Below, piece after piece: positions 20,458-28,311 of a DNA stretch of 64,000 nt. Every line of letters starts with the position of its first letter. Position 1 is the stretch's first letter. Under the pieces are notes generated by a model that was not told the origin of the DNA, searched no databases, and worked only from the letters and a program-made list of their open reading frames with translations. Both the position numbers and the translations under genes were made by a program. Source of the DNA: an uncultured Nitrospinota bacterium (GTDB lineage Bacteria; Nitrospinota; Nitrospinia; Nitrospinales; VA-1); assembly GCA_905612265.1 (NCBI GenBank), contig CAJQRI010000037.1, positions 26,268-90,267 of the forward strand, given 5' to 3'.

Positions 20458-21006
20458 ATGGATACCAGTGGCAACAAGACTGCCTTTGGCCAGGAAAGGG
20501 GCATGGCTGCAACCGAATCAATTGTTCGGATGAATTTGAGCAAAGATGGCAAAACTCTTGATCTCACTGCTACTTATTTGAAGGAATATGGTGCCAAGGA
20601 TATCGCTCGCATGGAGTTTCTGCGACCTTTAACGCATTTGGCTTTTGGGACAAATTTATGTGGTCCAAAAGGACTGAAATATATAGCCCAGTCTGAAGTA
20701 TTGGTTAGCCTGACTTCGCTGAATATGTTTTATAACCGGCTGGGTAACGAAGGAGTCAAATACCTCGCGGTATCAGATAACCTTTTGAGCTTACAGAACC
20801 TGGTCCTTACAGATAATGAAATTACTGATGAAGGGGCTTTGATATTAGCGAAATTTATGCCTCTTTTTACCAACCTTGTACGTCTCGATTTGCGACTAAA
20901 CAGACTTAAGGATGAAGGAAAAGATGCCCTCAAAGAAGCGCAAAAAATGTCTACCGTCAAACACCTGCTGTTAGATAAAGTAGAAGGCTTTCAAGTTAAA
21001 GGCTGA
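20458..21006 (+). CDS. Leucine-rich repeat protein, RI subtype (short paralogue)
   Basis: 182 aa with LTSLNMFYNRLGNEGVKYLAVSDNLLSLQNLVLTDNEITDEGALILAK... GGAGAAAGGG lies upstream of the ATG. Confidence 0.75.
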   Translation: MDTSGNKTAFGQERGMAATESIVRMNLSKDGKTLDLTATYLKEYGAKDIARMEFLRPLTHLAFGTNLCGPKGLKYIAQSEVLVSLTSLNMFYNRLGNEGVKYLAVSDNLLSLQNLVLTDNEITDEGALILAKFMPLFTNLVRLDLRLNRLKDEGKDALKEAQKMSTVKHLLLDKVEGFQVKG

Positions 21007-21101
21007 CCGACCAGCGGCCGGTGGCTATAGGGCGGTGAATCTGGCGCGCCCGCCAAGAAATATTTTGAGCTGCCAATAATTTACTGCCGTTACTACCTTG
21101 C

Positions 21102-21947
21102 CTAGCCTGATGGATTTAAGGTCACCTTTTCGTTGTCGAACAGTGGTTGAATATCTCCGAAATCTATCCCCGCAAGGTCCACACATTTCTGTATGTCGGA
21201 ACTTTGATAAATAATTTGCCATAACCGGTTGCCCATTTCCTGAAGATTTTCGAGTAGGGAATTAATGCCTTGAGGGTGTTGGATTATGGCGAACAGGTCA
21301 AGTTCTGCTGCTTTCCATTTAGTCTGAATTTTAAAAATATCCCGATACAGTTCCTGTTCATGCTCAATGAGCGGGAAGGTGCTTCTAAGAGGATGCGCCT
21401 TTGTCGAGTTTGGGAAAAGTGACTTGAACTCTTTTTCGATACGCCCTGCTTTCCAACTGGTGAACAGATACCCGGTTAGATTGCCGTGCAATACTGAAAT
21501 GGACTTAACAAGGTGCTGAACCCGGTCAATATGCTCTGACCGCATTTCATTTATTAAAACGGCGTTGGGGAAATCCTTATTGATTCGTTCCTTGATCAGG
21601 AAAAGGTTGGCATAAAGTTCCCGCAGTACCGAATTCAAATTAGCGATGGTAACGGGGTCATCTGGGGCACGGGTTTCCTTTAAGGAAATCGTTTCCACTT
21701 CTAAATCCCTTTGGGTTGTTTCGATATAATTGATTTGTGGGATATTGAGAAGGCTTTGAAAAATCTCTGGTGAAAGAGCCAGATTGAGACCAAACTGCTC
21801 CTGTATAAAATCACGGATTTTTCGGCATTTAACCACATCTCGGAACGTTACAACCGTTTGCTGCAAAGGTTCTCCTGTCTCCACAAAAGGTTCAACCGCT
21901 GTTTCCGGACCCAGCAATTTTTTTAATATTCGTTTAGGGTCACGCAA
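21102..21947 (-). CDS. Hypothetical protein (281 aa)
   Basis: Long ORF with ordinary composition and a TTG start in the track. No motif recognised. It is the last gene before the tRNA-Leu 5'-half copy. Confidence 0.5.
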   Translation of the reverse strand: MRDPKRILKKLLGPETAVEPFVETGEPLQQTVVTFRDVVKCRKIRDFIQEQFGLNLALSPEIFQSLLNIPQINYIETTQRDLEVETISLKETRAPDDPVTIANLNSVLRELYANLFLIKERINKDFPNAVLINEMRSEHIDRVQHLVKSISVLHGNLTGYLFTSWKAGRIEKEFKSLFPNSTKAHPLRSTFPLIEHEQELYRDIFKIQTKWKAAELDLFAIIQHPQGINSLLENLQEMGNRLWQIIYQSSDIQKCVDLAGIDFGDIQPLFDNEKVTLNPSG

Positions 21948-22178
21948 AAATTTATCCCTCCGACACTGGGCGTAGGGCCAGTTGTAATGGCTTCGATTGA
22001 CTGATAAACCTCTTCTTGGTTTATCAGGATATTACCTATATCGTATAACGAACGATTATAGGATTTAAACGGCGTTGATGGTTGGAATTTTTAAAGGAAA
22101 CTGTTAACATTCGTGTCGGCCAGACTCTGGTGGCCCCCAATTTCTGACGGAGCATTTTTGAAACGCGCAAACACCTGA

Positions 22179-22220
22179 GCCGGGGTGGCGGAATTGGTAG
22201 ACGCAAGGGACTTAAAATCC
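22179..22220 (+). repeat. Displaced copy of tRNA-Leu(UAA) nt 1-42 (5' half through anticodon loop)
   Basis: GCCGGGGTGGCGGAATTGGTAGACGCAAGGGACTTAAAATCC is identical to 24023-24064. Identity ends after the core and is followed by a second ACTTAAAAT. Confidence 0.9.
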
Positions 22221-22315
22221 ACTTAAAATAACCCTTCATTTAACATCTACACCCACTAAACCCATTATAGACAAGGGTTTCCCGACATTAAGGTGTTTCA
22301 GAAATCGTTCAAATA

Positions 22316-22339
22316 ACTCGTAGTAAACTCGTAGTATCG
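22316..22339 (+). repeat. Tandem ACTCGTAGTA pair (left copy)
   Basis: ACTCGTAGTA-A-ACTCGTAGTA-TCG, 96 nt after the tRNA 5'-half copy. It matches 23950-23974. Confidence 0.85.
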
Positions 22340-22404
22340 CTAGTGGATTTTTGAAGGTGATATTTTTTTCTATTTATTGTTATATTAACGATCGCCATCA
22401 ACCA

Positions 22405-23703
22405 CTAAATATTATTTTTTGATCGCTTTAATTTTTGCTTTTTAAGTGATTTTGCGCGGCTGTGACGGAAAGATTCTGTTTCAGACATACTTTCCAAATG
22501 ATCGGGGTTTACACAAGCTAGTTCCTTACAGTTCTGATGAATTTTAACTGTGCCACTTATATTGCCATAATATAAGAACCATGAAATATAATGCGCGGTG
22601 TGCATAGAACCGTTAAACCAGAACCTTCCATGTCCAGCTTTTTCAATTTTATCAGTCCAGAGCCAACAACCAGTGGTACTTGACTCTTTATCTACCTTTG
22701 AAAAAAACCTTTTTTTGTTTTTCTCATCTAGATTCTTCAACGGGTTCTTTTTTTTTCGTTTATCTTTGAAATTTTTTTGTTTTTCCAGCGTTTTCATTCG
22801 ACGAATGGCATCAGCCATAAGTTCTTTTCTCACTTTTTCTGAGAAAAGAAAGTCTTCATTTATATCTAAATATTTTGATTGCGATATCCCAGCATTATCT
22901 TTAAGGGTTACTTCCTTTAAATGATCAGGGCGTACACAAACTTTGACATCAGATTTATGGTGGATGGCATATCCATCAGGAAGTGATTTGTGTTCCAACC
23001 AATAAGAAAAACGATGAGGTCTTTGTCGGTGATTCTGATACAAAAACCTTCCATAGTTCATAAAGCCTTTTCCATCTGTAACTCCAAACCATAACCAGCA
23101 ACCATCCTGTGATTTGTCAACTTTCCCCCAAAAACGATCGATACTTTTTTTATTTGGATTTACCCATCCGATACCATGTCTATTTCCTTCTAATAAATTT
23201 GCTCTTTTCGAATTTTCTTCATTGGTTATTAGTTCAAGATGATCAACATTTATACATAAACGATTACCACATGTGTGATCAACCACCGAGTTGCCAACAG
23301 GACCAATAATCTTTTCGTAAGCGTAAATGTGTGCGTAAACATTAACTTCATCATTTTTCCATCTGAATTTACCATAACCATCCCTTATAGATCCCGACCA
23401 GACAAGACAGTGGGTCTGTCTGTCACGTGTCACCTCATTATCAAGATGCCATTTCCATGTGTCTTCAAAATTCTTAAAGTAAGGTCTTCTTTTTTCTTTT
23501 TTAATATTATTTTCTTTTAAAAAAAATTCATAATGGGTGTAACAAAGCTGGTGAGTGATATTTATGGTGGGTTTATCGCAGAGTTCAAAGCTACAGCTGG
23601 TGTGTTTAGAACGCAAAAGATTTCTATAATGTTTATTACATAATCCTCGACTATTTATAGGAAGGTTACACCCATCAAATTCACATTTTTTACGGGAATT
23701 CAT
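22405..23703 (-). CDS. Multi-domain HNH endonuclease: N-terminal Cys/His knuckles plus three tandem HNH-type modules
   Basis: The N-terminus has two C-x4-C...LC-x2-HY units (CEFDGC...LCNKHY, CSFELC...LCYTHY). Three modules of the phage/homing HNH type follow: HCLVWSGS..GYGKF...DHTCGNRLCINVDHLE, GCWLWFGV...HRFSY...HHKSDVKVCVRPDHLK, GCWLWTDK..GHGRF...HQNCKELACVNPDHLE. The start is set at ATG 23703; the track start is TTG 23754. Confidence 0.8.
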   Translation of the reverse strand: MNSRKKCEFDGCNLPINSRGLCNKHYRNLLRSKHTSCSFELCDKPTINITHQLCYTHYEFFLKENNIKKEKRRPYFKNFEDTWKWHLDNEVTRDRQTHCLVWSGSIRDGYGKFRWKNDEVNVYAHIYAYEKIIGPVGNSVVDHTCGNRLCINVDHLELITNEENSKRANLLEGNRHGIGWVNPNKKSIDRFWGKVDKSQDGCWLWFGVTDGKGFMNYGRFLYQNHRQRPHRFSYWLEHKSLPDGYAIHHKSDVKVCVRPDHLKEVTLKDNAGISQSKYLDINEDFLFSEKVRKELMADAIRRMKTLEKQKNFKDKRKKKNPLKNLDEKNKKRFFSKVDKESSTTGCWLWTDKIEKAGHGRFWFNGSMHTAHYISWFLYYGNISGTVKIHQNCKELACVNPDHLESMSETESFRHSRAKSLKKQKLKRSKNNI

Positions 23704-23949
23704 CTTTTGCTCAGTTTTGTAGAATAAATAGATCGATCTTAAAACCAGACCCAAAAACGAACTATAGTTCGTTTTTAAGATATAGTCATATTAAGGGTGG
23801 GAAAATGGAAGGGGAAAAGGGGTACCATAATCTATGACAATTTCGTAAAACATTGTATCTAAATGTCTAAGGTATAATTTTGTAATTATTTTTACCGATG
23901 AATAAACTATGGTAATATTACACGAATTTTAGGCAGTGAAAAATCAAAA

Positions 23950-23974
23950 ACTCGTAGTAGAACTCGTAGTATCG
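23950..23974 (+). repeat. Tandem ACTCGTAGTA pair (right copy)
   Basis: ACTCGTAGTA-GA-ACTCGTAGTA-TCG, 48 nt upstream of the intact tRNA-Leu. It is in direct orientation relative to 22316-22339. Confidence 0.85.
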
Positions 23975-24022
23975 TTAATCTTACTACCAAATAAAACCTG
24001 TAAGTCATTGTAAAATATGGTT

Positions 24023-24106
24023 GCCGGGGTGGCGGAATTGGTAGACGCAAGGGACTTAAAATCCCTCGAGGGTAACCTCGTACCGGTTCGATTCCGGTCC
24101 TCGGCA
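24023..24106 (+). tRNA. tRNA-Leu, anticodon UAA (class II, long variable arm)
   Basis: Folded by hand. Acceptor GCCGGGG/CCTCGGC with one G-U pair. Anticodon stem AGGGA/TCCCT with loop CTTAAAA, giving anticodon TAA. Variable arm CGAGGGTAACCTCG. T arm CCGG-TTCGATT-CCGG. Discriminator A. CCA is not encoded. Confidence 0.95.
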
Positions 24107-24116
24107 TTAAATAAAG

Positions 24117-24157
24117 AAAGGAGTTACGGCATTTTGGCTGTAGCTCCTTTTTATTTT
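24117..24157 (+). terminator. Rho-independent terminator after tRNA-Leu
   Basis: AAAGGAGTTACGGC / GCTGTAGCTCCTTT hairpin with two G-U pairs, followed by TTTTTATTTT. Confidence 0.6.
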
Positions 24158-24217
24158 AAGTGGTGAGATGTGTAATCTACGTGTAACTGGGCCAGAAAAA
24201 ATTGAGTGTCTGTAAAT

Positions 24218-24846
24218 TTAAACAGCCTTATATTGCCTTTCTAGTTTGTCCAGCTCCTTTTTGATATGTTCGCCATTCTGATGGGACTATTTGGCAACCA
24301 TCGCAAGATTTTTATGATCACTGACCCTCTGAACAGTCGGAAAATTTACGTCAGCTTGAACAAGTCGCGTGATGGCCGTTTGCCTCATAGTGTTAGGTAC
24401 TGCTTCTAATCCAGCCTCTTCTTCGGCTCGCTTGAAAGGCTCCATCATATAGCTTCGATGCTGTCTCTAGGGTTTCTTTGCAGGGAACAGAAACTCTTGT
24501 CCTGCTTCCAAGGACTTCATACGCTCCTCAAGAAAGTCTGTCAGGCGAGCAGTAATATGCTGCTCTCTAGCACCAGCTTTAGCCTTAGGAATGCAGATAA
24601 TTTGCTTGGCGAGGTCAACGTGCTTGACCTGGATAGATAGAACCTCTATATCCTCATTGAGGTGTCGAGGGCAATTTGTATAAAGGGCCAAAGGTCAGCA
24701 TCTCTATCTGCTTTGGTGCCCCGTATCCCGTATGACCTGATTCCCTTCGAATATCGAGGGATCTGTGCGTGCACGCCGACCCAAACCCTCCGCAGCCGCG
24801 TGGGGGGGGGGGTGCCGGCCAGATTGGTATAACCGATGTTAGTCAA
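24218..24846 (-). pseudogene. Tyrosine recombinase (phage-type integrase) pseudogene, N-terminally truncated
   Basis: Own translation gives ...LWPFIQIALDTSMRI / (frameshift) NEDIEVLSIQVKHVDL..IPKAKAGAREQHI...FLFPAKKP*RQHRSYMMEPFKRAEEEAGLEAVPNTMRQTAITRLVQADVNFPTVQRVSDHKNLAMVAK*SHQNGEHI. There are two in-frame TAG codons. The second occupies the catalytic Tyr position of the ...RYSH motif. The HxLRHT box is degraded to NTMRQT. The N-terminal third is missing. Confidence 0.8.
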
Positions 24847-24915
24847 CCTTCACCACGTAAGTTCGTCCGCACCAATCAGTGCTGAGGCCCATTTTAAATT
24901 AATCCAGTCGAAGAC

Positions 24916-27006
24916 TTAAGCCAATATATTTAACAATAATAGGGCAACAATATTGATTATTTTGATCATCGGGTTAATAGCTGGTCCAGCTGTATCTTTG
25001 TACGGATCACCAACTGTATCCCCTGTAATAGCGGCGTGGTGAGCTTCTGAGCCCTTGCCACCGTGATTACCGTCTTCAATATATTTTTTAGCGTTATCCC
25101 ATGCGCCACCACCAGCAGTCATAGACAATGCAACGAACAAACCAGTAACGATGGTGCCCATAAGCATTGCACCCAAAGCTGAGAACGCAGCTGATTGACC
25201 ACCAATTGCATTAACCACGTAATACATAACGACTGGTGCGAACAATGGAAGCATTGAAGGAAGTATCATTTCCTTGATTGCGGCTTTCGTCAGGATATCT
25301 ACACATTTTCCATATTCTGGCTTTCCGGTACCTTCCATAATGCCCGGTATTTCTCGGAACTGGCGGCGTACTTCAACAACAATAGCGCCTCCAGCCCGGC
25401 CAACAGCCATCATACCCATGGAACCAAACAAGTATGGCAACATACCACCAATGAATAGTCCAATAACAACATATGGATCTTGTAGGCTGAATGTTACGTC
25501 CAATTTCGGAAAGTAATGCTTCAAGTCTTCTGTATAAGCTCCAAACAGAACCAAGGCGGCTAAGCCAGCTGAACCAATTGCATACCCTTTAGTTACAGCT
25601 TTTGTGGTATTACCAACAGCATCTAAAGCGTCTGTTGTTTTGCGAACGTCTTCAGGAAGGTCCGCCATTTCTGCAATACCACCGGCGTTATCCGTTACAG
25701 GGCCAAAAGCATCAAGGGCAACAACCATACCAGCTAATGCAAGCATTGCAGTTGCAGCCATTGCTATACCGAATAAGCCAGCTTGCAAATAAGAAACGAT
25801 GATACCTGCACTAATTATAATTACGGGAAGCGCTGTCGCTTCCATTGATACAGCTAAACCTTGGATGACGTTTGTGCCATGACCTGTCTCAGATGCAGCA
25901 GCAATGCTTTTTACAGGGCGGTAATCGGTACCTGTATAATATTCAGTGATCCAGATAATCAAACCTGTGACAAGCAACCCAGTGATCGAGCAAACAAGCA
26001 ATTGCATACCATTGATGTCGCGACCAGCCATGTCGTATGCTTTATCAAAACCGATGTATTTTTGAATAGTTATAGCAATCAAACCAGCAGAAATAATGGC
26101 ACTTGCAATAAAGCCTTTGTACAAAGCTCCCATAATTGAGTTATTTGAACCCAATTTAACGAACCAGGTTCCAATAACAGAAGCAATAATACATACGCCA
26201 CATACTAATAAGGGTAGAAGCATCATGCTTTCTTGTGCAGCGCCAGTGAAGTAAATAGCCCCTAAAAGCATAGTTGCAACGATTGTAACCGCATAGGTTT
26301 CAAACAAATCTGCGGCCATACCAGCACAATCGCCAACGTTGTCTCCAACGTTATCAGCAATAACGCCTGCGTTACGGGGGTCATCTTCCGGAATACCAGC
26401 TTCGATTTTACCAACCAAATCAGAACCAACGTCTGCACCTTTGGTAAAGATACCACCACCCAAACGAGCAAAGATGGAAATCAACGAGGCTCCAAAGCCA
26501 AGAGCAACCATCGCTTCTAAAATCTGGCGCATGCCTTCAGCTGAATTTGAGTCAATTATGTTGCGCAGTATGACATAATAGCCAGCAACCCCTATTAGTG
26601 CCAAGCCAACAACCAACATGCCTGTTACAGCCCCAGATTTGAACGCAACATCCAATCCACCAGCTAAACCAACACTGCGAGCGGCTTCTGTTGTCCGGAC
26701 ATTAGCACGAACAGAAACGTGCATACCTATGTAACCGGCAAGACCAGAAAGGACAGCACCAATGACGTAACCTATTGCGCTCAGCATTCCTAACCAGAAG
26801 CCAAGCAAAATACCGATGATGACACCAACAACAGCAATTGCTGTATATTGGCGGTTTAAATATGCTCCAGCACCTTCTTGAATAGCGGAGGCAATTTCTT
26901 GCATACGTTCGTTACCAGCAGGTGCTGCTAGTACGGAACGAACTGCCCAAGCACCGTAAAGCAATGCGACAACGCCACATAACAAAACTAAATAATAAAG
27001 ATTCAT
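24916..27006 (-). CDS. hppA: Membrane-bound proton-translocating pyrophosphatase, K+-independent type
   Basis: About 697 aa and highly hydrophobic. M-PPase motifs seen: [71 protein letters not shown]. The Lys in GNTTKA marks the K+-independent class. The start is set at ATG 27006 (MNLYYLVLL...), with AGAGG 8 nt upstream; the track starts at 27042. Confidence 0.93.
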
Positions 27007-27559
27007 TTTATGCCTCTGGTTAGGGTTAACCCAAATACACATAAAATGAATGCGTATGATGTAATCTTGACCTTTTGTGACATCTACTCCTCCTTCAGTA
27101 ACGATGATTGTTCAAATTTAAAACCATCTCGAATGGTGAGAATGAGATGGGAATAATACAGTAAGAACTTAGCTTTCACTATCACAAAATAGTCAGAACC
27201 ACCTCACACCTAAAGCAACTCACTCCCTCCCACGCAAAATCCTTAATAAACCGCAAGTACTCATCATGCCAAAATGATAATAAACTTTACGCATTAGGTT
27301 TACGTTAGAACGCTCCCGCAACTGCCAAAATATCACCTTTTAACGTCATCAAAGACAGCCTATTTAGGCATGTCAGTGAGGGCGAGGTTTCGGTGTAATT
27401 CCTGTGAATCTTGCCAATCAAAATAACGATTCTTAGGGTAAAACACAGAATCCATTTTGGCGAATAGGACTTGCAGTATGCCCACTTCTCTAGTAAAAAT
27501 ATATCTTTCGAGAACAAAATGGATGAGAAGCTAAAAGTGCATAAAACTTATGCGGAGTT

Positions 27560-27612
27560 ACTTAAAATCCCTCGAGGGTAACCTCGTACCGGTTCGATTC
27601 CGGTCCTCGGCA
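27560..27612 (+). repeat. Displaced copy of tRNA-Leu(UAA) nt 32-84 (anticodon loop to 3' end), att-like
   Basis: ACTTAAAATCCCTCGAGGGTAACCTCGTACCGGTTCGATTCCGGTCCTCGGCA is identical to 24054-24106. A small hairpin, CTCCC-ATAA-GGGAG, follows it. Confidence 0.9.
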
Positions 27613-27783: not shown

Positions 27784-28311
27784 ATGATTATTGATGAAAT
27801 ACCGATAGGCGAAGCACCTCCGTGGGATATCAACGTTATCATCGAGGTTCCATTTGGTCGGGAACCAGTGAAATACGAAATGGATAAGAAATCCGGTGCC
27901 CTTTTTGTGGACCGCGTCATGCACACTTCAATGCGCTACCCTTGTAATTATGGGTTTGTGCCGCATACGCTTTCTGAAGATGGTGACCCTATAGATATTT
28001 TGGTGGCATCCCCTGTAGAGTTTTTGTCCGGTTGCGTTGTTCGTTGCCGACCTGTCGGGGTTCTAAAAATGAAAGATGAAAAAGGGGCAGATGAAAAAAT
28101 TCTGGCTGTTCCGGTTGATGCCTTGAACCCTTATTATGTAGATGTCAAAGAATACACTGATTTGCCTGAAATCCTGCTAAATCAAATAACTCATTTTTTT
28201 GCGCACTATAAAGATTTAGAGTCAGAGAAATGGGTCGAATTGGAGGGTTGGGAAGATGCAGAGCATGCAGCTGGGCTAATCAAACAAGCCATTGAGCGAG
28301 CATCTTCTTAG
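27784..28311 (+). CDS. ppa: Soluble inorganic pyrophosphatase, family I
   Basis: It aligns by eye along its whole length with E. coli Ppa as recalled from memory: VIIEVP...[15 protein letters not shown]...YPCNYGF...DGDPIDILV...[21 protein letters not shown]...[19 protein letters not shown]. The start is set at ATG 27784 to match family length; the track starts at 27736. Confidence 0.93.

What the first reader, a model, noticed from the sequence alone, without database searches (positions are those of the whole stretch)
22179..27612. tRNA-Leu(UAA) bracketed by a displaced 5' half and a displaced 3' part: a two-sided (or split-and-replace) integration site
Seen: the intact tRNA-Leu(UAA) gene is 24023-24106 (84 nt, + strand). 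It has two partial, identical, same-strand copies. 22179-22220 equals its nt 1-42, and 27560-27612 equals its nt 32-84. The fragments overlap only in ACTTAAAATCC (anticodon loop plus adjoining stem bases), so together they would rebuild exactly one tRNA. At the left junction the core is followed at once by a second ACTTAAAAT. The left segment (22221-24022) is AT-rich by eye, and its only gene is a three-module HNH ORF. The right segment (24107-27559) begins with a decayed tyrosine integrase next to the tRNA 3' end and then carries hppA.

Established: tyrosine-recombinase islands and prophages commonly use tRNA genes as attB, with crossover in the anticodon or T loop. They rebuild the tRNA from element-borne 3' sequence and leave the displaced 3' fragment as the distal att site. 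A displaced 5' half is not the usual outcome.

Inference, two models:
- (a) Two elements occupy both sides of one tRNA gene, and the left one carried a 5' tRNA segment in its attP.
- (b) One element of about 5.3 kb carrying its own complete tRNA-Leu inserted into the anticodon loop of the resident gene, split it and replaced its function.

Either model would be an uncommon tRNA-targeting architecture.
Basis: partly seen in the sequence, partly recalled or inferred. Interest (0 to 1): 0.75.

Follow-up and report, generated by a model that had tools for sequence, protein, structure and literature searches.

The report
Two mobile elements flanking one tRNA-Leu
A Nitrospina tRNA-Leu gene was hit twice: first by an ordinary, now dead, integrase island on its 3' side, and later by a rare 1.8-kb element on its 5' side that has only an HNH nuclease gene, no integrase, and its own replacement front half of the tRNA.

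Summary
tRNA-Leu(UAA) lies at 24023-24106. 22179-22220 equals its nt 1-42 and 27560-27612 equals its nt 32-84, both 100% identical.

Natural alleles settle the history. Relatives L003 and L111 have an empty site (281-aa gene, tRNA, ppa). L110, 97% identical to the window, has the native upstream flank, an intact tRNA and the right-hand island, but no left element. So there were two independent, sequential insertions.

The right element (24107-27559) is a conventional tyrosine-integrase tRNA island. It is fixed in this population. Its integrase is a pseudogene whose catalytic Tyr codon is now a stop, and its cargo is hppA.

The left element (22221-24022) is the interesting part.
- It is AT-rich (GC 0.34 against 0.45) and rare: 2 assemblies carry its protein, against 137 for the flanking gene.
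- It has no integrase. Its only gene is a triple HNH nuclease of the phage homing-endonuclease type.
- A relative with 61% protein identity sits in a tRNA-Leu(CAA) gene with the same layout.
- Its non-coding ends are better conserved than the gene. They carry 2+2 direct 11-nt repeats that change in concert between elements.

How the left element moves is unproven. It could be HNH-promoted, or carried out by an integrase acting in trans.

The parts
21102..21947 (-). Conserved 281-aa Nitrospinaceae gene, the left chromosomal flank
   Evidence: Syntenic in L001, L003, L005, L008, L110 and L111. 362 homologues, some named as Nitrospina or Nitrospinae.
22082..22110 (+). Putative native tRNA promoter (TTGGAA, 17 nt, TAACAT). 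It now sits in front of the displaced 5' fragment only.
   Evidence: Read directly from the sequence. The block is conserved in L003, L110 and L111. Function is inferred.
22179..22220 (+). Displaced native 5' fragment of tRNA-Leu (nt 1-42), the left junction of the HNH element
   Evidence: 42/42 identical to 24023-24064. Contiguous with the native upstream flank, as in L003 and L110.
22221..24022 (.). E_L: 1802-bp AT-rich HNH element with no recombinase. The inserted DNA is 1844 bp when one 42-nt repeat is counted.
   Evidence: Absent from L110, L003, L111, L005 and L008. GC 0.339. 99.75% identical copy in L112. Diverged relative in tRNA-Leu(CAA) in L081.
22221..22229 (+). Second ACTTAAAAT at the element's left tip
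   Evidence: The homologous position in L081 reads CATTAAAAC, so this is an element feature and not a target duplication.
22315..22336 (+). Left pair of 11-nt direct repeats, AACTCGTAGTA x2
   Evidence: The motif occurs only 4 times in the window, all inside E_L; 0 of 100 shuffles reach that count. It lies 94 nt from the left junction (96 nt in L081).
22405..23703 (-). Triple-module HNH (His-Me finger) nuclease gene, 432 aa, with two N-terminal Cys/His motifs
   Evidence: Pfam and PHROGs. PADLOC 'homing endonuclease'. AF2 model with pLDDT 77.6 and weak Foldseek matches to I-PpoI, SMAD-MH1 and I-HmuI. Ser251 replaces a Cys that all relatives conserve.
23753..23776 (.). Perfect 24-nt palindrome AAAAACGAACTATAGTTCGTTTTT upstream of the HNH start; candidate operator or terminator
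   Evidence: 100% conserved in L081.
23949..23971 (+). Right pair of direct repeats, AACTCGTAGTA (G) AACTCGTAGTA
   Evidence: It ends 51 nt before the tRNA start (50 nt in L081, 52 nt in L007). The motif differs in concert between elements: AACTGGTAGTA in L081 and AGTTATAGAA in L007.
24023..24106 (+). Functional tRNA-Leu(UAA). Its upstream DNA comes from E_L and its downstream DNA from E_R.
24054..24064 (+). 11-nt segment ACTTAAAATCC (anticodon loop plus adjoining bases) shared by both junctions; the probable crossover region
   Evidence: Overlap of repeats D1 and D2.
24107..27559 (.). E_R: 3.45-kb decayed tyrosine-integrase island
   Evidence: Absent in L003 and L111. Present in L110 and L100-L109 at 96-99% identity.
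24115..24152 (+). Island-borne terminator-like hairpin after the tRNA
24284..24915 (-). Tyrosine-integrase pseudogene, with its C-terminus towards the tRNA
   Evidence: Pfam Phage_integrase. Three-frame translation shows a frameshift, an in-frame stop, TAG at the catalytic Tyr and N-terminal truncation. The same lesions occur in L104 and L110.
24916..27006 (-). hppA (H+-translocating pyrophosphatase), the island cargo
   Evidence: Pfam H_PPase, E = 2e-264. A 696-aa gene is called in L104. Not found within 10 kb of ppa in the eight other Nitrospinaceae loci.
27560..27612 (+). Displaced native 3' fragment of tRNA-Leu (nt 32-84), followed by the native downstream hairpin
   Evidence: 53/53 identical. 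The downstream flank matches L003. It carries 0-3 mismatches in population contigs.
27784..28311 (+). ppa (soluble inorganic pyrophosphatase), the right chromosomal flank
   Evidence: Pfam. Served as the anchor.

Best explanation
**Shown.** The locus records two separate insertions into one tRNA-Leu(UAA) gene of a Nitrospina population.

1. A tyrosine-integrase island (E_R, 24107-27559) integrated at the anticodon loop. It brought its own tRNA 3' part and pushed the native 3' part (27560-27612) next to ppa. It became fixed in the population and its integrase decayed.
2. Later, a 1.8-kb AT-rich element (E_L, 22221-24022) entered the same gene from the other side. It displaced the native 5' 42 nt (22179-22220), together with the native promoter. 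The working gene was left with an identical nt 1-42 copy, preceded by E_L DNA.

E_L is a discrete mobile unit of a small family.
- A relative with 61% protein identity sits in a tRNA-Leu(CAA) gene with the same junction position.
- Its non-coding ends are conserved.
- It carries the same 2+2 subterminal direct repeats, which differ in sequence between elements.

**Inferred.** E_L moves as a unit by one reciprocal (Campbell-type) exchange between its own copy of tRNA nt 1-42 and the chromosomal gene. The exchange happens at or beside the anticodon loop, probably through a circular or tandem form. An outward promoter in E_L probably drives the rebuilt tRNA.

**The enzyme is my committed guess.** The element's only protein, the triple HNH nuclease, docks on the co-varying repeats and nicks or cuts the tRNA gene. 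Host recombination then completes the exchange. I put this at about 45%. An unlinked tyrosine integrase acting in trans is about 30%, and plain homing among conspecifics about 20%.
For: **Sequential, independent insertions**
- Empty sites in L003 and L111, and an allele with E_R only in L110 at 97% identity.
- E_R is present in all 10 population contigs that reach the region.
- The 90% cluster of the E_L protein has 2 members. The cluster of the flanking 281-aa protein has 137.

**E_L as a unit**
- A 99.75% identical copy in another sample, L112.
- L081 has the same architecture at tRNA-Leu(CAA), with the junction after AAAATCC.
- The start of L007 carries the homologous right end directly abutting tRNA nt 1 in another Nitrospina species.

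**No cis recombinase**
- HNH is the only ORF, and there is no integrase.
- The E_R integrase already carried its lesions, including the TAG stop, in the E_L-free allele.

**attP-like layout**
- The repeats lie about 94 nt and about 51 nt from the tRNA segment. This spacing is conserved in three elements.
- The repeat motif changes in concert: C to G in all four copies in L081, and a different motif in L007.
- The non-coding ends are 85-87% identical, against 75% for the coding sequence.

**Circle or tandem form**
- In L081, the 13 nt before the left 5' half are identical to the element's own right end.

**HNH type**
- Phage homing-endonuclease families.
- Free-standing homing endonucleases that cut tRNA genes are documented: SegB and F-TflI, II and IV (PMC2330249).
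Against: - No cleavage, excision or circle was observed directly. The L081 junction could be an assembly effect, or a true 55-nt duplication.
- His-Me finger nucleases are not known to carry out site-specific integration. According to PMC4383910, only tyrosine recombinases are known to target tRNA genes.
- The junction beside the anticodon loop and the arm-like repeats are exactly what a tyrosine integrase would leave.
- The occupied allele keeps an intact tRNA gene, so a tRNA-directed nuclease would have no sequence-based self-immunity.
- This copy has Ser in place of a conserved Cys (residue 251). It may be inactive.
- Only 3-5 family members are known, and only two have both ends readable.
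- The promoter assignment rests on weak consensus matches (one search lists none of them).
Confidence: 0.5

Rival explanations
1. E_L is a non-autonomous integrative element of the CIME or satellite type. A tyrosine integrase encoded elsewhere (another island or an infecting phage) recognises the anticodon-loop core and the four subterminal repeats as arm-type sites, and inserts or excises E_L. The HNH gene is selfish or accessory cargo.
For: - The junction lies at the anticodon loop, the classical integrase sublocation. About half of Islander islands use it, and 159 have 5' fragments.
- The repeat pairs sit roughly symmetrically about 80-100 nt either side of the core in the circular permutation.
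- The conserved non-coding region is about the size of an attP site.
- Only tyrosine recombinases are known to target tRNA genes.
Against: - No integrase lies in the element or in its relative L081.
- The neighbouring E_R integrase was already dead, and E_R has no such repeats.
- A motif scan found no intact tyrosine-recombinase signature in the 64-kb window. This is a weak test.
- Three repeat variants would need three matched helper integrases. The full-length HNH ORF is kept in all three readable full-size relatives.
Confidence: 0.3
2. E_L is a conventional free-standing homing-endonuclease cassette. It spreads only between conspecifics by double-strand-break repair, with a double crossover in the chromosomal flanks. 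The 5'-half duplication arose once by accident, is simply inherited, and keeps the tRNA functional. The repeats and the palindrome regulate HNH expression.
For: - The protein is of the phage homing-endonuclease type.
- There is presence/absence polymorphism at one site among 97%-identical genomes.
- Free-standing homing endonucleases that cut tRNA genes are documented.
- A palindrome overlaps a promoter-like site in front of HNH.
Against: - The same element family sits in a different tRNA gene (CAA), with a perfectly cognate duplicated 5' half. Flank-dependent homing cannot produce that without extra steps.
- The occupied allele retains the whole target gene, so there is no immunity.
- The non-coding ends are more conserved than the gene.
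- L081 shows an element-to-element junction.
Confidence: 0.17
3. One reading: one 5.3-kb element (22221-27559) carrying its own complete tRNA-Leu inserted into the anticodon loop of the resident gene and replaced it.
For: The two fragments together rebuild exactly one tRNA and overlap by 11 nt. Empty-site relatives alone (L003) cannot tell this model from model (a).
Against: - L110 has E_R and an intact tRNA on the native upstream flank, without E_L.
- L005 and L008 have right-side islands only.
- E_L relatives occur with other partners or at another tRNA (L007, L081).
- E_R is fixed while E_L is rare.
- The two segments differ strongly in composition.
Confidence: 0.01
4. E_L is a disguised intron of the tRNA-Leu(UAA) gene (a group I intron with an antisense endonuclease gene), or else the repeats are an assembly artefact.
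For: tRNA-Leu(UAA) is the classic host of a bacterial group I intron, and the element sits at the anticodon loop. That background is recalled knowledge, not tested here.
Against: - Rfam Intron_gpI scores only 14.6 bits against a gathering score of 50, with E = 1.2.
- A complete uninterrupted tRNA gene follows the element.
- The base before the would-be 3' splice site is T, not G.
- The architecture recurs in independent assemblies: L081 has both junctions and L007 the right one.
Confidence: 0.01

Closest known systems
Tyrosine-integrase genomic islands in tRNA genes (Islander-type; PMC4383910)
   Same: - E_R fits completely. It has a regenerated tRNA, a displaced 3' fragment on the correct side and strand, an integrase next to the tRNA, a boundary at the anticodon loop and an empty site in relatives.
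- E_L shares the signature of a tRNA gene plus a displaced fragment with foreign DNA between them.
- 4% of Islander islands (159 of 3919) likewise displace a 5' fragment.
   Different: - E_L has no integrase and is only 1.8 kb. Islander discards candidates under 2 kb or without an integrase, so such elements are systematically missed.
- E_L's single gene is an HNH nuclease.
- E_R differs only in being a fossil with a dead integrase.
Free-standing homing endonuclease genes that cut tRNA genes: T4 SegB (GIY-YIG) and T5 F-TflI, II and IV (HNH) (PMC2330249)
   Same: - A stand-alone nuclease gene of a phage homing-endonuclease family, associated with tRNA genes.
- Sporadic presence among close relatives.
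- No recombinase.
   Different: - Those sit between genes in phage genomes. They spread by break repair with flank co-conversion and duplicate nothing.
- E_L lies inside a chromosomal tRNA gene, is flanked by a 42-nt direct repeat of the target, has conserved repeat-bearing ends, and occurs in two different tRNA-Leu genes.
Integrase-less integrative elements mobilised in trans (CIMEs of streptococcal ICEs; IMEX elements using XerCD). Recalled from memory, not checked here.
   Same: An element bounded by att-like repeats, with no recombinase of its own. It could in principle be moved by a recombinase supplied in trans.
   Different: - CIMEs are decay products of a neighbouring ICE. E_L is a conserved family with its own gene and element-specific repeats.
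- IMEX elements use dif, not tRNA genes.
- No candidate helper was found here.
Organellar free-standing endonuclease genes that bring a replacement end of the invaded gene and leave the old end as a pseudogene (for example fungal mitochondrial atp6 or cox1 cases). Recalled from memory, not checked here.
   Same: A 'split and replace' outcome. The element carries a copy of the gene segment it displaces, so the host gene keeps working.
   Different: Those replace the 3' ends of protein-coding genes in mitochondria. Here it is the 5' half of a bacterial tRNA gene, which also requires a new promoter.
Group I intron of tRNA-Leu(UAA)
   Same: The same gene and the same region (anticodon loop). Such introns can host endonuclease genes.
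   Different: There is no ribozyme. The functional gene is uninterrupted, and the HNH gene is on the opposite strand.

Membership tests
Tyrosine-integrase tRNA-gene island (applied to E_R, 24107-27559) | Intact tRNA gene plus a displaced end fragment, on the same strand and the correct side | tested here: met
   24023-24106 and 27560-27612, 53/53 identical.
Tyrosine-integrase tRNA-gene island (applied to E_R, 24107-27559) | Tyrosine recombinase gene inside the island | tested here: met
   Pfam Phage_integrase on 24287-24448. It is a pseudogene with a frameshift, stops, a lost catalytic Tyr and N-terminal truncation.
Tyrosine-integrase tRNA-gene island (applied to E_R, 24107-27559) | Unoccupied site in relatives | tested here: met
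   L003 and L111 have tRNA directly followed by the native flank and ppa.
Tyrosine-integrase tRNA-gene island (applied to E_R, 24107-27559) | Current ability to excise or integrate | not testable with these tools
   The integrase lesions make it unlikely. Reads or PCR would be needed.
Tyrosine-integrase tRNA-gene island (applied to E_L, 22221-24022) | Intact tRNA gene plus a displaced fragment on the correct side (a 5' fragment upstream) | tested here: met
   22179-22220 equals nt 1-42, upstream and on the same strand.
Tyrosine-integrase tRNA-gene island (applied to E_L, 22221-24022) | Tyrosine recombinase gene inside the element | tested here: not met
   The only non-overlapping ORF is the HNH gene. 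The relative L081 likewise has a single HNH gene.
Tyrosine-integrase tRNA-gene island (applied to E_L, 22221-24022) | Unoccupied site in relatives | tested here: met
   L110 at 97% identity joins 22220 to 24065. L003, L005, L008 and L111 are also unoccupied.
Free-standing homing endonuclease cassette (applied to E_L) | Encodes a nuclease of a homing-endonuclease family | tested here: met
   Pfam HNH_3 and zf-His_Me_endon. PHROG HNH families with E down to 1e-65. PADLOC 'HEase'. Weak fold matches to I-PpoI and I-HmuI.
Free-standing homing endonuclease cassette (applied to E_L) | Presence/absence polymorphism at one site among close relatives | tested here: met
   Window against L110. Cluster sizes are 2 against 137.
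Free-standing homing endonuclease cassette (applied to E_L) | Target site destroyed or altered in the occupied allele (self-immunity) | tested here: not met
   The occupied allele keeps a complete, identical tRNA gene and the native flank plus nt 1-42. Only a site more than 43 nt long, reaching from the upstream flank past nt 42, would be lost.
Free-standing homing endonuclease cassette (applied to E_L) | Endonuclease cleaves the empty allele | not testable with these tools
   Needs the purified protein and L110-type DNA.
Group I intron in tRNA-Leu(UAA) | Group I ribozyme core interrupting the gene in the anticodon | tested here: not met
   RF00028 scores 14.6 bits against a gathering score of 50. 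There was no hit at E <= 1 in the 10-kb scan. The tRNA gene is uninterrupted.
Transposon or insertion sequence | Transposase gene and terminal inverted repeats | tested here: not met
   No transposase domain. No terminal inverted repeats between the ends. The 42-nt direct repeat is far longer than known target-site duplications.
Integrase-less element mobilised in trans (CIME or IMEX type) | A cognate recombinase encoded elsewhere that acts on its att sites | tested here: inconclusive
   None was seen in the 64-kb window by a motif scan, and the adjacent integrase is dead. The rest of the genome could not be searched.

The most novel reading that the evidence does not exclude
E_L represents a class of autonomous, tRNA-gene-specific mobile elements that need no tyrosine recombinase. 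A multi-module His-Me finger (HNH) protein recognises element-specific subterminal repeats and the tRNA-Leu anticodon region. It drives insertion that regenerates the gene, either from a carried copy or from a target-derived copy of the 5' 42 nt. Because such elements are under 2 kb and lack an integrase, current island finders would miss them.
Probability: 0.3. Interest if true: 0.85.

Novelty: new variant of a known kind. Interest (0 to 1): 0.55.

Why it matters
- **A complete natural series.** The site has empty, once-occupied and twice-occupied alleles, so the order of events at a tRNA integration hotspot is documented rather than guessed.
- **An unusual left element.** It moved as a 1.8-kb unit into a tRNA gene with no recombinase of its own, at a time when the neighbouring integrase was already dead.
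- **If the HNH protein is responsible.** That would be a new enzymatic route to site-specific insertion in tRNA genes. It would also be a compact nuclease plus DNA-site system that is worth testing.
- **If a helper integrase is responsible.** E_L would be one of the smallest integrative satellites described.
- **A blind spot either way.** It exposes a gap in island-finding pipelines that require an integrase and a length of at least 2 kb.
- **A side observation.** A proton-pumping pyrophosphatase reached this Nitrospina lineage as island cargo. That may matter for the energy budget of this nitrite oxidiser.

Tried and rejected
- **Group I intron or other known RNA.** Rfam on 10 kb, then on the 2-kb element with lax filters, found only the tRNA. 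Intron_gpI scored 14.6 bits, which is noise.
- **More family members.** The metagenome scan with the HNH alignment returned 9 distant homologues (47% identity or less). None had a tRNA or tRNA-fragment repeats. The viral scan gave one weak hit.
- **Element DNA in viral contigs.** Four patterns were tried: two conserved end blocks, the junction, and the repeat pair. They gave 0, 0, 0 and 18 hits. None of the 18 showed further similarity to E_L, so they look like chance matches.
- **Distant HNH homologues.** P0006 sits in phage-like contigs with no tRNA context. P0009 and P0017 were uninformative.
- **JGI contigs of P0002, P0004 and P0005.** No DNA was available.
- **PDB sequence search with the HNH protein.** No hit.
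- **E_L left end as a decayed tRNA 3' part.** Not significant once the ACTTAAAAT motif is removed.
- **Subterminal repeats as mimics of the tRNA D-loop (AATTGGTAGAC).** Matches of 7-8 of 11 are not significant; 11-58% of shuffles do as well.
- **An intact tyrosine recombinase elsewhere in the window.** A motif scan found none. This is a weak test.
- **A sigma-70 promoter for the rebuilt tRNA inside E_L.** The scanner lists none facing the tRNA near the right end. TTGTAA, 17 nt, TAACT-type matches seen by eye fall below its threshold.
- **Exact look-up of the 281-aa protein.** It found nothing, so its 98% homologue P0026 was used instead.

Full report
**Observation.** The window holds one tRNA gene, tRNA-Leu(UAA), at 24023-24106 (ARAGORN; Rfam 58.4 bits). 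22179-22220 is 42/42 identical to its nt 1-42. 27560-27612 is 53/53 identical to its nt 32-84. All three are on the same strand. The two fragments share only ACTTAAAATCC, which covers the anticodon loop and adjoining stem bases. A second ACTTAAAAT follows the left fragment at 22221-22229.

**Organism and comparative series.** The ppa protein placed the window in Nitrospina (Nitrospinaceae MAGs at 86-91% identity). BLASTN of the region against these loci and direct reading gave a graded series.
- L003 has the 281-aa gene, the native upstream flank, one intact tRNA-Leu, the native downstream hairpin and ppa. This is an empty site.
- L005 and L008 have the native flank plus an intact tRNA. An island of 6.4 or 2.7 kb follows, then a 3' tRNA fragment before ppa.
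- L007 has a different 2.8-kb island on the right. Upstream of the tRNA, where the contig begins, it has about 90 nt homologous to the right end of the window's left segment.

An exact-protein look-up with ppa returned ten contigs of the same population (96-99% nucleotide identity). Wherever they reach the region, they all carry hppA or the island's right end, the 3' fragment and ppa. A 98%-identical homologue of the 281-aa protein led to L110. That contig is 97% identical to the window. Window 20746-22220 runs straight into 24065-24407. In other words, it has the native flank, an intact tRNA and the left end of the right island, with the left segment missing. L111, an 87-92% relative, is empty on both sides.

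The history is therefore empty site, then the right island, then the left element. The two are independent.

**The right element, E_R (24107-27559).** It is a textbook tRNA-gene island.
- It supplies tRNA nt 43-84 and a terminator-like hairpin (24115-24152).
- It carries a tyrosine integrase directly beside the tRNA (Pfam).
- It leaves the native 3' part as the distal repeat.

The integrase is dead. It has a frameshift after the box I arginine, an in-frame stop, TAG in place of the catalytic tyrosine codon, and a truncated N-terminus. The same lesions occur in L104 and L110, so the gene was already dead before the left element arrived. The displaced 3' fragment carries 0-3 mismatches across the population, as expected for a relic. 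The cargo is hppA. GC is genome-like.

Other Nitrospina species carry unrelated, integrase-less islands at this tRNA, with boundaries at about nt 26, 34 and 52. The site is a general hotspot.

**The left element, E_L (22221-24022).**
- It is compositionally foreign. GC is 0.339 against 0.451, and no background window of equal length is as low. The tetranucleotide distance is also the most extreme.
- Its only gene encodes a 432-aa protein. This has two N-terminal Cys/His motifs and three HNH_3 (His-Me finger) modules (Pfam; three matched stretches for each PHROG HNH profile; PADLOC 'homing endonuclease').
- An AlphaFold model (pLDDT 77.6) gives only weak Foldseek matches, to I-PpoI, SMAD MH1 domains and I-HmuI (E = 0.05-0.3). 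That fits strung-together His-Me finger modules and nothing more.
- Distant homologues are free-standing HNH genes in phages.
- There is no integrase, transposase or terminal inverted repeat.

**E_L is a family, not a scar.** Among 5.8 billion proteins only five are close relatives.
- L112 is 99.75% identical in DNA, from another sample.
- L081, with 61% protein identity, shows the whole architecture again but in a tRNA-Leu(CAA) gene. It has nt 1-42 of that tRNA, the element, and then the same 42 nt continuing into the rest of the gene. The junction falls after the same AAAATCC.
- Between the window and L081, the non-coding ends are 85-87% identical while the coding region is 75%.
- Each end carries a tandem pair of 11-nt direct repeats. 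In the window these are AACTCGTAGTA, found only at 22315/22326 and 23949/23961 (0 of 100 shuffles reach four hits).
- All four copies in L081 read AACTGGTAGTA. The two visible copies in L007 read AGTTATAGAA.
- Spacing to the tRNA segment is conserved: 94 and 96 nt on the left, and 51, 50 and 52 nt on the right.
- A perfect 24-nt palindrome in front of the HNH start is identical in both elements.

**Rarity and timing.** The 90% cluster of the HNH protein has 2 members. The cluster of the neighbouring 281-aa protein has 137. E_L is thus a low-frequency, strain-specific insertion. The two 42-nt repeats are still identical.

**Mechanism.** The following is shown.
- The 1844 bp (E_L plus one repeat) is the exact difference between L110 and the window.
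- It came in as a unit.
- No recombinase is linked to it.
- The adjacent integrase was already inactive.

The rest is inferred. The structure is what a single reciprocal exchange would give, between a circular E_L carrying tRNA nt 1-42 and the chromosomal gene. The contig L081 hints at such a form. The 13 nt preceding its left tRNA half are identical to the element's own right end, and they align with the window's right end. That is an element-to-element junction through the tRNA segment, meaning a circle or a tandem copy. An assembly effect or a genuine 55-nt duplication cannot be excluded.

For the enzyme I favour the element's own HNH protein (about 45%).
- It is the only conserved gene.
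- The repeats co-vary with the element.
- Free-standing homing endonucleases that cut tRNA genes are documented (SegB and F-TflI, II and IV; PMC2330249).
- In two different tRNA-Leu genes, both copies of the 5' half are cognate and identical.

Against this view:
- The position beside the anticodon loop and the arm-like repeat layout are the hallmarks of tyrosine integrases.
- Tyrosine integrases are the only enzymes known to target tRNA genes (PMC4383910).
- The occupied allele retains a complete target, so a tRNA-directed nuclease would have no sequence-based immunity.

A helper integrase acting in trans (about 30%) and plain homing among conspecifics (about 20%) remain open. This particular copy has Ser at a Cys conserved in every relative, including the 99.75% identical copy. 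It may no longer be fully active.

Because the native promoter-like block (22082-22110, conserved in L003, L110 and L111) now faces only the orphan fragment, the working tRNA must be transcribed from within or across E_L. Candidate promoter hexamers in the conserved right end are weak, and the scanner did not call them.

**Comparison with known systems.**
- E_R is a member of the tyrosine-integrase tRNA-island class, as a fossil.
- E_L shares the tRNA-plus-fragment signature. It belongs to the minority that displaces a 5' fragment (159 of 3919 Islander islands). It fails the defining test of an internal integrase, and it is below the 2-kb cut-off of that pipeline.
- E_L shares its nuclease type and its patchy distribution with free-standing homing endonuclease genes. 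It fails the test that the target be altered in the occupied allele, and it has repeat-bearing conserved ends that those genes lack.
- It is not a group I intron and not an insertion sequence.

**Verdict.** Half of the finding is ordinary. The other half is a small, rare, recombinase-less HNH element family in tRNA-Leu genes. It is a new variant of known kinds, with a testable chance of being a new insertion mechanism.

Noticed in passing
window 24916-27006 and 27784-28311: The island cargo is a membrane H+-pyrophosphatase (hppA). It landed directly beside the chromosomal soluble pyrophosphatase gene ppa. hppA is absent from the 10 kb around ppa in eight other Nitrospinaceae genomes, but fixed in this population. 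Its origin (Nitrospinota or foreign) was not traced.
   Followed up: partly
window 24802-24812: The window has a run of 11 G here, where the population contig L104 has 74 extra bases between two GCGTGGG repeats. This is either a deletion in the integrase pseudogene or a collapse in the window's assembly.
   Followed up: partly
window 22951-22953 (codon 251 of the HNH gene): Ser replaces a Cys (HHKCD motif of module 2) that is conserved in all relatives, including the 99.75% identical copy L112. This copy of the nuclease may be impaired.
   Followed up: partly
L081 1-66 and 1842-1896: A 55-nt exact terminal repeat of the contig includes 13 nt of the element's own right end ahead of the left tRNA half. 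This suggests a circular or tandem form of the element in that sample.
   Followed up: partly
L001 5793-8461: This Nitrospina MAG has an extra 2.7 kb (629-aa and 202-aa ORFs) between the 281-aa gene and the tRNA upstream flank, with no tRNA fragments. It is a separate indel at the same intergenic region.
   Followed up: no
L005 2190-8520; L007 300-3070; L008 2100-4815: Other Nitrospina species carry unrelated, integrase-less islands at the same tRNA-Leu. In L005 these are a 949-aa methyltransferase-like protein and neighbours. In L007 they are a CBS-domain protein and small ORFs. In L008 it is a 673-aa secreted protease-like protein. The 3' fragments start at about nt 26, 52 and 34.
   Followed up: partly
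L002 759-843: In an unclassified relative (ppa 89% identical), the tRNA upstream of ppa is tRNA-Leu(CAA), not UAA, with different surroundings.
   Followed up: no
L086 1-170 and 345-474: A distant HNH homologue is preceded by two arrays of a 15-16-nt unit in opposite orientations: GACAATTTGCCCCGAG (about 11 copies) and its complement.
   Followed up: no
window 24023-24106, compared with L003, L005, L007, L008 and L111: The T-stem of this population's tRNA-Leu has an A-T pair where other Nitrospina have G-C, a compensatory double change. Both the island-borne copy and the displaced native 3' copy carry the A-T version.
   Followed up: no
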